Counted from the stretch's first letter, positions 26,206 to 28,957 are shown. The stretch: DNA of 61,840 nucleotides from Puniceicoccaceae bacterium (GCA_040830765.1 JBFOMH010000025.1:1-61840), one strand, 5' to 3'. Translations and numbers: made by a program. The notes: generated by a model from the letters alone, not told the origin.

Positions 26206-27051
26206 ATGCGGTTTTACAAATATCACGCCCTGGGCAATGATTACCTCGTCCTCGATCCAGTCGACGCACCGGAGTTGCCGCAGGCAACGGACATCCAGAC
26301 CATCTGTCACCGCAACTTCGGACTGGGTTCCGACGGAATCCTCTACGGTCCCCTCCCCTCTGAAAAGGCTGACTTCGGTCTCCGCATCCTGAATCCGGAT
26401 GCCAGCGAGGCGGAAAAAAGTGGGAACGGCTTGCGCATCTTCGCCCGTTACCTGCGCGACACCGGCAAGGTGGGCACCGAACCCTTTACGGTTGATACAC
26501 TCGGGGGTGTCGTAACTTGCGTGGTCAATGAGGACGGCAGTTCCATCACAGTCGACATGGGAACCGTCTCATTCGCCGCTGATGTGATCCCGGTGGACGG
26601 ATTTGAGGGAGATGTTGTGGACAAGACCATCGAGCTTGAAGGCAAGGTTTACCCAATGTACGCCGCGACCATCGGGAATCCACACTGTGTCCTCCCGATG
26701 GATGAAGTTGATAAGGCCATCGCCTGCGAATTAGGCCCGCTCATTGAAAACCATCCGATCTTCCCCAACCGGACAAACGTCCAGTTTCTCAAGGTGCTTG
26801 ATGAAAGGAATATCCAGATAGAAATCTGGGAACGCGGGGCCGGTTACACACTCGCCAGCGGCAGCAGCTCCAGTGCCGCAGGGGCCGTGGCCCGGCGCAT
26901 GGGAGCTGTCGGTTCCGACATCACCGTCCACATGCCGGGTGGTATGATCCAGCTGCAGATAGATGATGGGTTTTCCGTCCGGATGACCGGACCAGCAACC
27001 CGGGTCGGCGCCTATGACCTGGATGAGGAAGCCCTCCGCCCTACCAGTTGA
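26206..27051 (+). CDS. dapF: Diaminopimelate epimerase family protein, Ser/Ser active-site variant
   Basis: KYHALGNDY, GSDG, NPD.SEAEKSGNGLR, GNPH, FPNRTNV and WERGAGYTLASGS motifs; both canonical catalytic Cys positions are Ser. Confidence 0.85.
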   Translation: MRFYKYHALGNDYLVLDPVDAPELPQATDIQTICHRNFGLGSDGILYGPLPSEKADFGLRILNPDASEAEKSGNGLRIFARYLRDTGKVGTEPFTVDTLGGVVTCVVNEDGSSITVDMGTVSFAADVIPVDGFEGDVVDKTIELEGKVYPMYAATIGNPHCVLPMDEVDKAIACELGPLIENHPIFPNRTNVQFLKVLDERNIQIEIWERGAGYTLASGSSSSAAGAVARRMGAVGSDITVHMPGGMIQLQIDDGFSVRMTGPATRVGAYDLDEEALRPTS

Positions 27052-27949
27052 GCAACAGCCCCAGGCAAAAGAGTCCGCCAACAAGCAGCAGGGCCAAGGC
27101 CGTGCGGACAAGGACCCTTTCGAATGCATCCCTGTCGCCTGCCCTGGCCAGCAAACGGTAATTGGAGAGCAGCAAGGGTGCGGCCAGCAGCACGCACAGG
27201 CATCCCCACTTGCTTCCCACGACCGCAAAGGCCAGGGGGACGAGAAGTGCCAGCAAGCTCAGGAGCCCATACTGGAGAAGGCCAAAGTTCTTTCCCCAAC
27301 GGACCGCAAGGGTCCTTTTCCCGACCTGCCGGTCCAGCGGTTCGTCCCGCACGTTATTCACGACCAGCAGATTGGTGGCAAGGGCACCCGGGACCATCCC
27401 GGCCAGAAGCGACCAGCAAACACTTGTGCCTGAAGGAAGGGATACGGCAAAACTGCCAACCTGTACGTAGTAGGTCATGCAGGTTGCGACCCAGCCAAAG
27501 AAAATGAAGACAAAGACGTCTCCCCAGCCATTATACCCGAGCGGATAGGGACCTCCAGTGTAGGCGATGCCACAGATGATGGAGACAATGCCCACCAACA
27601 CCAGCCACCAACCTCCCCACAAGACCAGGAAGCTGCCGATCACGAAAGCGGTTACAAAAACAATGACCATACCGCGATACATCGCCTCAGGGGAAATCCA
27701 ACCAGAGGCGACAGCGCGCTTGGGACCGATCCTGCGCTCATCATCCGCACCCTTGCGAAAGTCATAATAATCGTTGGCGTAATTCGTCCCCACCTGGATA
27801 AGCAGGGCAAAGACGAGACAGATCATCCAGGGGAGAACGGAAAACAGGTTGGCTGCAGCAGCCAGCGCCCCACCAACAAATACGGGGACCGCCGCAGCGG
27901 GGAGCGTCTTCGGCCGGGCGGCCAGCATCCAGTGCCTCCATGCTTTCAT
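27041..27949 (-). CDS. menA: 1,4-dihydroxy-2-naphthoate polyprenyltransferase
   Basis: ARPKTL, NYANDYYDFRKGAD, YTGGPYPLGY.G.GD and NNVRD..D...GKRTLAVR motifs. Confidence 0.93.
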   Translation of the reverse strand: MKAWRHWMLAARPKTLPAAAVPVFVGGALAAAANLFSVLPWMICLVFALLIQVGTNYANDYYDFRKGADDERRIGPKRAVASGWISPEAMYRGMVIVFVTAFVIGSFLVLWGGWWLVLVGIVSIICGIAYTGGPYPLGYNGWGDVFVFIFFGWVATCMTYYVQVGSFAVSLPSGTSVCWSLLAGMVPGALATNLLVVNNVRDEPLDRQVGKRTLAVRWGKNFGLLQYGLLSLLALLVPLAFAVVGSKWGCLCVLLAAPLLLSNYRLLARAGDRDAFERVLVRTALALLLVGGLFCLGLLLNW

Positions 27950-27966
27950 AACCTACGGAAAACCAT

Positions 27967-28518
27967 TCACCAATATGTGTGAATGGCAATTCCTTGTCGC
28001 AATACCCGGTCCTCGGCTTCCGGAAATTGCAGATACAGAACGCCGGGTTTTTCATTTCGAAAGAAACGCCCTCCAGACGAATTAATGAGGATCTCACCAG
28101 CATATCGGATTGGGTGCTCAAGGGTTGGCTCCCAAGTTCCATCCTCCGGCCAGCTACTCAATGTCCAATTGTCACCAGTCCGGGTAAGTTCCAGCCGCTG
28201 GATTCTCCCACGGGAACCCAGGCAACGAATGCGGAGGCGGTTCAAGGCGTTCCCCGTGACCGTTTCCCAGGTCTCAATCTCCAGCCATGGGTCCTCTGGA
28301 GTAAAGGGCTCCAGGCGTTGGTCCCAGGCCATTTGCAACCGCAGGCATAAGTCTTGGACAGCTTGCACTTCCAGTTGCCTGACCTGGCTTTCTGTTAATC
28401 GCGACAGGCTGAAGTGGATTAACTTCATCCCCACCACCGCAATCAGGGATGCTGTTCCCAGAACGACAAGAAGCTCGACCAGGGCCAGGCCACGTTTCTG
28501 GCTATGGTCACGGTTCAT
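27967..28518 (-). CDS. Prepilin-like protein (type IV pilin N-terminal methylation site)
   Basis: ATG at 28518: MNRDHSQKRG|LALVELLVVLG, with G|xxxxE and a hydrophobic helix. Confidence 0.65.
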   Translation of the reverse strand: MNRDHSQKRGLALVELLVVLGTASLIAVVGMKLIHFSLSRLTESQVRQLEVQAVQDLCLRLQMAWDQRLEPFTPEDPWLEIETWETVTGNALNRLRIRCLGSRGRIQRLELTRTGDNWTLSSWPEDGTWEPTLEHPIRYAGEILINSSGGRFFRNEKPGVLYLQFPEAEDRVLRQGIAIHTYW

Positions 28519-28957
28519 TGGTCTCAGGGAAGGACTCATGCCCGGCGGTCTGGGAATCCCACCAGGTCCACTCATGCGTATTTCCGTTGAACTGTTCGAT
28601 CCACCAGAGGGCCGAACCATTGTCGACAACCAGGCGCCTCCGCCACAGAAAGCCTTCCTCGGCGGTCCCCATCATGGGAAGCCACTCCTCATCAGGAAAG
28701 TCCAGGACGCTCCACCGGCCGTCATCCGCCCGTACCGCAAGGGCTACACGTCCGCCAGAGTTTCTCCAGACAGCCTCCACTGCTTGCATCGACGCTACCC
28801 TTTCGCGGGCCAGTCCGGTCGCGCGACCCACTGCGAGTTCATAGGCCAGCAGATGGTACCCCACCGTCATCACAACCGCCAACAGCATTAAGGCGGATGC
28901 CAGCTCCAGGGCAACAAATCCGGACTTTCCACGACCGTTGTTCACAGAAGCACCCAT
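28508..28957 (-). CDS. Prepilin-like protein (minor pilin/pseudopilin)
   Basis: MGASVNNGRGKSG|FVALELASALMLLAVV; overlaps the next gene by 11 bp. Confidence 0.65.
   Translation of the reverse strand: MGASVNNGRGKSGFVALELASALMLLAVVMTVGYHLLAYELAVGRATGLARERVASMQAVEAVWRNSGGRVALAVRADDGRWSVLDFPDEEWLPMMGTAEEGFLWRRRLVVDNGSALWWIEQFNGNTHEWTWWDSQTAGHESFPETNEP

What the first reader, a model, noticed from the sequence alone, without database searches (positions are those of the whole stretch)
26206..27051. DapF with both catalytic cysteines replaced by serines
Seen: canonical EMCGNG reads EKSGNG (Ser72, AGT at 26419-21) and TLACGTG reads TLASGSS (Ser218, AGC at 26857-59). The DAP-binding motifs (GND, NxD, GNPH, NV, ERG) are intact, and both codons are AGY, one base from TGY Cys. 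Established: DapF and related PLP-independent racemases use a thiol/thiolate pair. I recall serine-pair DapF homologues being reported recently, so this may be a little-known class rather than wholly new. Inference: an oxidation-resistant Ser/Ser epimerase, or one with altered substrate. The paired change argues against decay or sequencing error.
Basis: partly seen in the sequence, partly recalled or inferred. Interest (0 to 1): 0.7.

Follow-up and report, generated by a model that had tools for sequence, protein, structure and literature searches.

The report
Natural serine-serine diaminopimelate epimerase (DapF)
This gene is the bacterium's only copy of the lysine and cell-wall enzyme DapF and carries serines where textbook DapF has its two catalytic cysteines, a natural enzyme class first reported in 2025, so it is a new member of a known kind.

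Summary
ORF 26206-27051 (+) is a full-length DapF: TIGR00652 scores 232 bits against a cut-off of 115. It has Ser72 (AGT) and Ser218 (AGC) exactly where solved DapFs have their two cysteines.

It is not decay or a sequencing error. It is the only DapF-family gene in a 97%-complete Puniceicoccaceae/Opitutales genome that also has DapL, a LysA-like gene and two DAP-type MurE genes, and no DAP dehydrogenase. Of 37 order relatives with a hit, 36 carry the same Ser/Ser form as their single copy. dN/dS against the closest relative is 0.07. Both serines are kept across AGY and TCN codon families.

The Ser/Ser form is a large clade spanning several phyla: 125 of the top 150 50%-identity representatives. 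Some members are fused to LysA, MurE or alanine racemase. Six further positions co-vary with the serines: Y13, K71, I78, Q193, Y214 and S221.

The class is already in print (Lamer et al., J Mol Biol 2025). I saw it only as cited in PMC13728532. This scan has also noted it before, in at least 31 other genomes.

Verdict: a working thiol-free DAP epimerase, a new member of a known kind, of modest interest.

The parts
26206..27051 (+). dapF coding sequence, 281 aa plus stop; Ser/Ser-class diaminopimelate epimerase
   Evidence: ORF. PF01678 matched twice, 188.8 bits. TIGR00652 232.4 bits against cut-off 114.65. AF2 model pLDDT 95.9, pTM 0.92. Best Foldseek match 9mro_A, TM 0.92.
26419..26421 (+). 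AGT codon for Ser72, at the position of the first catalytic Cys of canonical DapF
   Evidence: Sequence; aligned to the Cys of CGNG in PDB DapFs. It lies immediately before helix 73-85 in the model. Ser in 139 of 139 Ser/Ser rows by definition of the set, Cys in 30 of 30 Cys/Cys rows.
26857..26859 (+). AGC codon for Ser218, at the position of the second catalytic Cys
   Evidence: Sequence; aligned to the Cys of ACGTG. It lies immediately before helix 219-231 in the model.
26242..26244 (+). TAC codon for Tyr13 (GNDY). Class-specific: Tyr in Ser/Ser enzymes, Phe in most Cys/Cys enzymes
   Evidence: Tyr in 135 of 139 Ser/Ser rows; Phe in 27 of 30 Cys/Cys rows. Part of the YKIQYS signature found in 116 of 120 Ser/Ser loci.
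26416..26418 (+). AAA codon for Lys71, directly before Ser72 (Met in Cys/Cys enzymes)
   Evidence: Lys 113 and Arg 9 of 139 Ser/Ser rows; Met in 30 of 30 Cys/Cys rows.
26437..26439 (+). ATC codon for Ile78 (a conserved third Cys in Cys/Cys enzymes)
   Evidence: Ile in 134 of 139 Ser/Ser rows; Cys in 28 of 30 Cys/Cys rows.
26782..26784 (+). CAG codon for Gln193 (NVQF; Glu or Asn in Cys/Cys enzymes)
   Evidence: Gln in 131 of 139 Ser/Ser rows; Glu 17 and Asn 13 of 30 Cys/Cys rows.
26845..26847 (+). TAC codon for Tyr214 (GYTLASG; Glu, Ile or Val in Cys/Cys enzymes)
   Evidence: Tyr in 113 of 139 Ser/Ser rows; Glu 16, Ile 7, Val 6 of 30 Cys/Cys rows.
26866..26868 (+). AGC codon for Ser221 (SGSS; Gly in Cys/Cys enzymes), in the first turn of the second central helix
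   Evidence: Ser in 134 of 139 Ser/Ser rows; Gly in 30 of 30 Cys/Cys rows. Helix 219-231 in the model.

Best explanation
The gene encodes the organism's working LL-/meso-diaminopimelate epimerase (EC 5.1.1.7). It takes LL-DAP made by the DapL aminotransferase route and makes meso-DAP for DAP decarboxylase (lysine) and for MurE (peptidoglycan). It has the ordinary DapF fold and the ordinary DAP-binding residues. Shown here: the fold, the position of the serines, conservation, sole-copy status, pathway context and natural fusions. Taken from print, second-hand: enzymes of this class are active, and swapping their serines for cysteines inactivates one of them. Inferred: the class-specific residues Tyr13, Lys71, Gln193, Tyr214 and Ser221, plus loss of Cys78, tune or relay protons to the serines.
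For: (1) Family: TIGR00652 equivalog at 232.4 bits against cut-off 114.65; two PF01678 halves; AF2 pLDDT 95.9 and TM 0.92 to the Anabaena DapF 9mro.
(2) Substrate site: N11, N63, N74, N158, N191, E209 and R210 are kept in both classes.
(3) Need: the genome (96.9% complete) has DapL at 567 bits over cut-off, a LysA-like gene and two MurE genes over the meso-DAP ligase cut-off. It has no DAP dehydrogenase and no other DapF-family gene.
(4) Phyletic pattern: 38 of 41 order genomes have exactly one TIGR00652 hit. Of the 37 relatives with a hit, 36 are Ser/Ser and 1 (G039) is Cys/Cys. Two reduced genomes of 0.8-0.9 Mb keep the Ser/Ser form. In 7 of 10 genomes of other lineages the Ser/Ser gene is again the only hit.
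(5) Selection: dN/dS is 0.066 against the closest relative, at dS 0.88. Ser is kept across both codon families.
(6) Natural fusions of Ser/Ser DapF domains: to LysA (TIGR01048 at 360 and 410 bits, over 297.9), to MurE (NF001126 at 433.6, over 373) and to alanine racemase.
(7) Print: PMC13728532 (passages) reports that Lamer et al. 2025 identified DapF enzymes using two catalytic serines, and that Ser-to-Cys replacement inactivated the Anabaena sp. YBS01 enzyme.
Against: No activity was measured for this protein or for any Opitutales member. The primary paper is not held, so I could not check how close the assayed enzymes are to this one. The nearest cyanobacterial Ser/Ser sequences I read are 56-58% identical. 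Engineered Cys-to-Ser changes in related enzymes hinder catalysis (PMC11602996, passages), so activity depends on the class-specific context, and I can only infer that this protein has it. The LysA-like gene scores below its curated cut-off (257.3 against 297.9). Roles of Tyr13, Lys71, Tyr214 and Ser221 are inferred from co-variation only, as no coordinates were available to measure distances. Lys71 is not universal: Ile or Met occurs in some Ser/Ser rows.
Confidence: 0.85

Rival explanations
1. The protein keeps the DapF fold but acts on another substrate or does another reaction, such as a different amino-acid racemase or a dehydratase-type reaction. Some other enzyme then supplies meso-DAP.
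For: DapF-fold enzymes with other substrates exist: O-ureidoserine racemase 7vdy is hit at 1.4e-30, and a histidine racemase is described in PMC11602996. Some genomes carry a Ser/Ser copy beside a Cys/Cys copy: G162, G164 and G166. A Ser/Ser member also occurs in Leclercia/Enterobacter, where a second, canonical DapF is likely but was not checked.
Against: All DAP-contact positions are conserved. It is the only DapF-family gene here and in most genomes examined. No DAP dehydrogenase was found. Members are fused to LysA and to meso-DAP-type MurE. It scores far above the DapF equivalog cut-off.
Confidence: 0.06
2. A bifunctional enzyme: a DAP epimerase that also supplies D-glutamate, as reported for the chlamydial DapF, because the lineage lacks glutamate racemase.
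For: MurI (TIGR00067) was over cut-off in 0 of 31 Opitutales genomes searched, with one weak 28.5-bit match. PMC5885031 (passages) shows a DapF with PLP-dependent Glu racemase activity in Chlamydia and proposes the same for other PVC bacteria without MurI.
Against: The chlamydial bifunctional model NF038284 scores only 59.9 bits against a cut-off of 350. A D-amino-acid-aminotransferase-like gene is present (205.7 bits, below cut-off 277.45) and could supply D-Glu. Nothing in the sequence points to PLP binding. The Ser/Ser clade is not restricted to genomes without MurI as far as I tested, and I did not test that.
Confidence: 0.07
3. A non-catalytic pseudo-enzyme, or an artefact of sequencing or assembly.
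For: Engineered Cys-to-Ser changes hinder catalysis in related enzymes (PMC11602996).
Against: dN/dS is 0.066. Ser is kept in 120 distinct loci through switches between AGY and TCN codons. The gene is retained in 0.8-0.9 Mb reduced genomes. It is the sole copy in a pathway that needs it. The class is reported as catalytic.
Confidence: 0.02

Closest known systems
Ser/Ser diaminopimelate epimerases of Lamer, van Belkum, Chen et al., J Mol Biol 437:169375 (2025). The paper is not held; known to me only through its citation and description in PMC13728532.
   Same: Serines at both catalytic positions on an unchanged DapF fold. The window protein falls in one clade with cyanobacterial Ser/Ser DapFs (Aphanothece L135 and two others, 56-58% identity), which share the Y13/K71/I78/Q193/Y214/S221 signature.
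   Different: In Anabaena sp. YBS01 the Ser/Ser enzyme is described as a second copy beside a Cys/Cys DapF. Here, and in 36 of 37 Opitutales relatives with a hit, it is the only copy, so it is the housekeeping enzyme. I could not compare directly with the assayed sequence.
Canonical Cys/Cys DapF (EC 5.1.1.7), for example P. aeruginosa 8qzy, Anabaena 9mro, A. thaliana 3ejx, E. coli 4ijz, H. influenzae 1gqz/2gke
   Same: [quoted passage not shown]
   Different: 32-38% identity to these chains in the Foldseek alignments. Both cysteines are Ser, and six further positions differ systematically. All 33 Cys/Cys rows sit on one side of a branch with SH-aLRT 97; all Ser/Ser rows sit on the other.
Engineered C73S and C217S mutants of H. 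influenzae DapF (2q9h, 2q9j)
   Same: Serine at one catalytic position on the same fold; found among the top structural matches.
   Different: These are single laboratory substitutions in a Cys-tuned active site. The natural class changes both residues together with their surroundings. That the mutants have low activity is my recollection, not a call. PMC11602996 says only that such mutations hinder catalysis.
Chlamydial bifunctional DapF/glutamate racemase (NF038284; PMC5885031)
   Same: A DapF homologue in a PVC-group bacterium that lacks a recognisable MurI.
   Different: Scores 59.9 bits against a cut-off of 350; the chlamydial enzyme is a different DapF lineage.

Membership tests
DapF, diaminopimelate epimerase (TIGR00652 / PF01678, EC 5.1.1.7) | Full-length match above the curated equivalog cut-off; two DAP_epimerase halves | tested here: met
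   TIGR00652 at 232.4 bits against 114.65, covering 1-268 of 281. PF01678 matched twice, 188.8 bits.
DapF, diaminopimelate epimerase (TIGR00652 / PF01678, EC 5.1.1.7) | DapF fold with two pseudo-symmetric alpha/beta domains | tested here: met
   AF2 pLDDT 95.9, pTM 0.92. Foldseek 9mro_A at E 2.5e-34, TM 0.92, followed by further DapF chains.
DapF, diaminopimelate epimerase (TIGR00652 / PF01678, EC 5.1.1.7) | DAP-binding residues. In H. influenzae numbering, recalled rather than taken from a call: N11, N64, N75, N157, N190, E208, R209 | tested here: met
   N11, N63, N74, N158, N191, E209 and R210 are present, and invariant or nearly so in both the Ser/Ser and the Cys/Cys sets.
DapF, diaminopimelate epimerase (TIGR00652 / PF01678, EC 5.1.1.7) | Thiol/thiolate pair of catalytic cysteines | tested here: not met
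   Ser72 and Ser218 occupy both positions. This is the defining feature of the classical mechanism, not of the activity, since a Ser/Ser class is reported as active.
DapF, diaminopimelate epimerase (TIGR00652 / PF01678, EC 5.1.1.7) | [quoted passage not shown] | tested here: met
   Helices 73-85 and 219-231 in the model, so Ser72 and Ser218 are the residues just before them.
DapF, diaminopimelate epimerase (TIGR00652 / PF01678, EC 5.1.1.7) | Pathway context: an LL-DAP source upstream, meso-DAP users downstream, no bypass | tested here: met
   DapL at 567.3 bits over cut-off. Two MurE genes over the NF001126 cut-off. LysA-like gene at 257.3 bits, below cut-off 297.9. No DAP dehydrogenase. No second DapF.
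DapF, diaminopimelate epimerase (TIGR00652 / PF01678, EC 5.1.1.7) | LL-/meso-DAP epimerase activity | not testable with these tools
   Needs an enzyme assay or complementation.
Ser/Ser DapF class (Lamer et al. 2025, as described in PMC13728532) | Serine at both catalytic positions on the DapF fold | tested here: met
Ser/Ser DapF class (Lamer et al. 2025, as described in PMC13728532) | Common descent with the assayed cyanobacterial Ser/Ser enzyme | tested here: inconclusive
   The window protein shares a clade and the six-residue signature with Ser/Ser DapFs of three cyanobacterial genomes. One of these (G164) also has a Cys/Cys copy, as described for Anabaena sp. YBS01. The YBS01 sequence itself was not available to me.
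Chlamydial bifunctional DapF/glutamate racemase (NF038284) | Score above the curated cut-off of the model | tested here: not met
   59.9 bits against 350.

The most novel reading that the evidence does not exclude
The serines do not act alone. Each works in a proton relay with class-specific neighbours: Tyr13 and Lys71 around Ser72, and Tyr214 and Ser221 around Ser218, with Gln193 replacing an acidic or amide residue. The Ser/Ser clade would then have a differently built acid/base apparatus, not a simple Cys-to-Ser swap. In Opitutales this thiol-free machine has fully replaced the thiol enzyme as the housekeeping DapF. The clade would have arisen once, through Thr/Cys and Ser/Cys intermediates that still exist, and spread between phyla by gene transfer.
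Probability: 0.3. Interest if true: 0.55.

Novelty: new member of a known kind. Interest (0 to 1): 0.3.

Why it matters
DapF is a textbook case of a thiol/thiolate two-base racemase and a proposed antibiotic target that is hit by cysteine-directed inhibitors. A natural thiol-free form that serves as the sole housekeeping enzyme has three consequences:
- The thiol pair is dispensable for the chemistry. Here it is absent in a whole order of Verrucomicrobiota and in members of several other phyla.
- Cysteine-directed DapF inhibitors and redox inactivation would not apply to these bacteria.
- Annotation rules that demand the two cysteines would wrongly flag these genes.

The class itself is already published, so this window adds distribution, context and a residue signature, not a new principle.

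Tried and rejected
- Sequencing error or recent mutation: rejected. 120 distinct Ser/Ser loci were read, with both Ser codon families at both positions.
- Pseudo-enzyme: rejected on dN/dS of 0.066. Other pairwise comparisons had saturated dS and say little.
- Hidden second DapF: none found with TIGR00652 or PF01678 in the own genome. The only other PF01678 row is a 12-bit match at E 0.53.
- DAP dehydrogenase bypass: not found.
- Operon context in the window: none. The neighbours are putA-like (divergent), menA (convergent) and rho.
- Literature: four full-text searches on natural Ser DapF found nothing directly. These were, which had zero hits. led only to PMC13728532. The primary paper could not be opened by DOI or PubMed id.
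- Structure: no natural Ser/Ser DapF is in the PDB copies searched by sequence or by fold. I could not measure distances in the model, so residue roles stay inferred.
- Not run: the second look-up of earlier notes found nothing. I did not use sequencing reads, complex prediction or the protein atlas, because conservation already answers what they would address.

Full report
**Observation.** The ORF at 26206-27051 (+) is intact: 281 aa with an ATG start. Counting in frame from 26206, codon 72 is AGT (26419-26421) and codon 218 is AGC (26857-26859). The protein matches PF01678 twice (188.8 bits). It matches the DapF equivalog TIGR00652 at 232.4 bits, against a cut-off of 114.65. phmmer against PDB chains finds 17 distinct sequences. 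The best is P. aeruginosa DapF 8qzy (5.7e-53), then Anabaena 9mro and Arabidopsis 3ejx. The printed alignments put Ser72 on the Cys of CGNG and Ser218 on the Cys of ACGTG.

**Is it the organism's DapF?**
- The genome holding the window (3.99 Mb, 40 contigs, 96.9% complete) has a single TIGR00652 match, which is this gene. It has no other meaningful PF01678 match.
- It encodes a DapL-type LL-DAP aminotransferase (567.3 bits, over cut-off).
- It has a LysA-like decarboxylase (257.3 bits, below the cut-off of 297.9).
- It has two MurE paralogues, both over the cut-off of the meso-DAP-adding ligase model NF001126 (446 and 414.9 against 373).
- It has no DAP dehydrogenase.
- The route therefore makes LL-DAP and needs an epimerase, and this gene is the only candidate of a known kind.
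- The neighbours give no help: putA-like (divergent), menA (convergent) and rho.

**Relatives in the order.** Names given by sources place the organism in Puniceicoccaceae/Opitutales.
- Among 41 genomes of the order including this one, 38 have a TIGR00652 hit, and each of those has exactly one. The three without a hit are 68%, 92% and 80% complete.
- I read all 37 relatives' genes. 36 are Ser/Ser and one (G039) is Cys/Cys at 30% identity.
- Two reduced genomes of 0.8-0.9 Mb keep the Ser/Ser gene.

**Relatives in the phylum.** In a sample of 121 genomes, 111 have a hit.
- Of the 30 loci returned, 3 are Ser/Ser: two from the same order, and one (G118) from another part of the phylum.
- The other 27 are Cys/Cys, at only 28-37.5% identity to the query.
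- So the Opitutales enzyme is not a diverged copy of the DapF of its sister lineages. It belongs to a different branch of the family.

**Size and shape of the Ser/Ser branch.** A full HMMER scan of 1.84 billion 50%-identity representatives gave 17,990 hits at E <= 1e-3. The best 150 break down as follows:
- 125 are Ser/Ser.
- 14 are fragments showing Ser at the one position covered.
- 4 are Cys/Cys.
- 7 are mixed or odd: A/S, T/C, S/C, S/T, R/S, L/S and C/S.

A scan of species-representative genomes confirmed 587 relatives. The best 80 include Opitutales and other Verrucomicrobiota. They also include Planctomycetota (Pirellulales, Sedimentisphaerales), a BRC1/Sumerlaeota MAG, Myxococcota and a cyanobacterium, Aphanothece. 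Source names for other members include Leclercia/Enterobacter and Candidatus Solincola.

I searched ten of these genomes from outside the order sample. In 7 the Ser/Ser gene is the only DapF hit. In 3 (a Sedimentisphaerales, a Pirellulales and the Aphanothece genome) it sits beside a Cys/Cys copy.

In a sample of 61 cyanobacterial genomes, 3 have a Ser/Ser-type gene at 56-58% identity. Two of those three show no second match.

**Tree.** I built a quick IQ-TREE tree of 96 rows. It held 57 Ser/Ser, 33 Cys/Cys and 6 mixed rows. I left out multi-domain proteins, fragments, duplicate loci, and two of every three Ser/Ser representatives.
- All Cys/Cys rows fall on one side of a branch with SH-aLRT 97.
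- A T/C row and an S/C row branch at the base of the Ser/Ser side.
- The Aphanothece Ser/Ser protein nests in the same subclade as the window protein.
- The root is not inferred, and many inner branches are weak.

**Selection.** Against the closest relative (90% amino-acid identity), dN/dS is 0.066 at dS 0.88. More distant pairs have saturated dS. Codon use at the two positions across 120 distinct Ser/Ser loci is:

| Position | AGC | AGT | TCG | TCC | TCA | TCT |
|---|---|---|---|---|---|---|
| 72 | 73 | 24 | 5 | 17 | 1 | 0 |
| 218 | 22 | 5 | 41 | 30 | 14 | 8 |

Moving between AGY and TCN needs two base changes. Serine itself has therefore been held for a long time. The AGY/AGY state of this gene is just one lineage's codon choice.

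**Functional linkage.** Ser/Ser DapF domains occur fused to several partners in metagenome proteins:
- to LysA (TIGR01048 at 360.3 and 409.8 bits, over 297.9);
- to MurE (TIGR01085 at 451.1; NF001126 at 433.6, over 373);
- to alanine racemase (TIGR00492 at 378.8 and 247).

Fusion calls on metagenome contigs can be artefacts. However, five independent fusions to enzymes that use or accompany meso-DAP agree with an epimerase role.

**How it probably works.** The AF2 model is confident (pLDDT 95.9, pTM 0.92). It places Ser72 and Ser218 immediately before helices 73-85 and 219-231, the same helix-cap positions as the cysteines of solved DapFs. The best structural match is the closed, inhibitor-bound Anabaena enzyme 9mro (TM 0.92). 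All DAP-contact residues are kept in both classes.

Six positions change together with the serines. Counts are from 139 Ser/Ser and 30 Cys/Cys rows:

| Position | Ser/Ser class | Cys/Cys class |
|---|---|---|
| 13 | Tyr 135 | Phe 27 |
| 71 | Lys 113 | Met 30 |
| 78 | Ile 134 | Cys 28 |
| 193 | Gln 131 | Glu or Asn |
| 214 | Tyr 113 | Glu, Ile or Val |
| 221 | Ser 134 | Gly 30 |

The full signature is present in 116 of 120 Ser/Ser loci. It is also present in the three cyanobacterial Ser/Ser genes. The Cys/Cys set is mostly from one phylum, and the 120 loci are mostly close relatives, so these frequencies are not unbiased.

I infer that these residues tune or relay protons to the two hydroxyls. 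This fits the published remark that putting cysteines back inactivates a Ser/Ser enzyme, but it is not shown.

**What is known.** PMC13728532 (passages read) states three things about Lamer et al. [quoted passage not shown]
- They identified DapF enzymes that use two catalytic serines on the same fold.
- Ser-to-Cys replacement in the Anabaena sp. YBS01 enzyme inactivated it.

I could not open the primary paper. I therefore cannot say whether it already covers sole-copy lineages, the fusions or the signature. Other papers read in passages:
- PMC12039745 covers the Anabaena Cys/Cys enzyme, its kinetics and 9MRO.
- PMC11602996 says Cys-to-Ser mutation hinders catalysis.
- PMC8142540 is a review and makes no mention of natural Ser DapF in the passages shown.
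- PMC5303756 reports that Opitutaceae contain DAP at about a tenth of the E. coli level, plus ornithine, and lists a DapF without comment.
- PMC5885031 covers the chlamydial bifunctional DapF.

Earlier notes of this scan hold 31 findings of the same kind in at least 31 other genomes. One of them is marked as checked and in print.

**Verdict.** The gene is best read as a working, thiol-free DAP epimerase that is the housekeeping enzyme of this order. It is a new member of a known kind. The residual novelty lies in distribution, replacement of the thiol enzyme, and the co-varying residues.

Noticed in passing
own genome, outside the window: G000:C3:84784-86175 (L154) and G000:C21:113946-115232 (L170): There are two MurE paralogues, both over the curated cut-off of the meso-DAP-adding ligase model NF001126 (446 and 414.9 against 373). 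Opitutaceae are reported to contain both DAP and ornithine (PMC5303756), so one copy might add a different diamino acid.
   Followed up: partly
own genome and 30 Opitutales relatives; G000:C17:313112-313951 (L186): No glutamate racemase (TIGR00067) was over cut-off in 0 of 31 genomes. A D-amino-acid-aminotransferase-like gene (205.7 bits, below cut-off 277.45) is present in the own genome. The source of D-glutamate is therefore open.
   Followed up: partly
proteins P0134, P0146, P0158, P0149, P0174, P0156, P0127, P0205, P0184: Ser/Ser DapF domains occur fused to LysA, alanine racemase and MurE. They also occur fused to a gamma-glutamyl cyclotransferase-like domain, a methyltransferase and a GNAT acetyltransferase. 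The last three partners are unexplained.
   Followed up: partly
protein cluster of P0132: Leclercia adecarboxylata and Enterobacter isolates carry a 286-aa Ser/Ser 'diaminopimelate epimerase', 48% identical to the window protein. It is presumably a second copy beside the enterobacterial DapF. Neither its gene neighbourhood nor the second copy was checked.
   Followed up: no
L008 (G039, same order) and L067 (G118, another family of the phylum): There are exceptions to the taxonomic pattern. One Opitutales-order genome has only a Cys/Cys DapF, and one genome elsewhere in the phylum has only a Ser/Ser DapF at 61% identity. In the tree, Ser/Ser genes of different phyla are intermixed on short branches. 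This suggests gene transfer and replacement.
   Followed up: partly
proteins P0179 (Thr/Cys), P0181 (Ser/Cys), P0182 (Ser/Thr), P0252 (Cys/Ser), P0163 (Ala/Ser), P0198 (Arg/Ser): These are mixed catalytic pairs. The Thr/Cys and Ser/Cys proteins branch at the base of the Ser/Ser side of the tree and already carry some class residues. They may be intermediates, or simply errors in single metagenome sequences.
   Followed up: partly
window 27041-27051: The 3' end of dapF (+) and the 3' end of menA (-, 27041..27949) overlap convergently by 11 bases.
   Followed up: no
window 27967-28629 (-) and 28508-28957 (-): Two ORFs (220 and 149 aa) have no NCBIfam match. By eye, their N-terminal parts have a hydrophobic stretch after a short charged leader that resembles prepilin or pseudopilin N-termini. 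Nothing was tested.
   Followed up: no
L053 (G082:C48:1416-2189): A Cys/Cys dapF of another family of the phylum is interrupted by one in-frame TGA near a contig end.
   Followed up: no
own genome G000:C4:243254-244468 (L034:1489-2778, -): The only LysA candidate scores 257.3 bits, below the TIGR01048 cut-off of 297.9. It is a divergent DAP decarboxylase or a related decarboxylase.
   Followed up: partly
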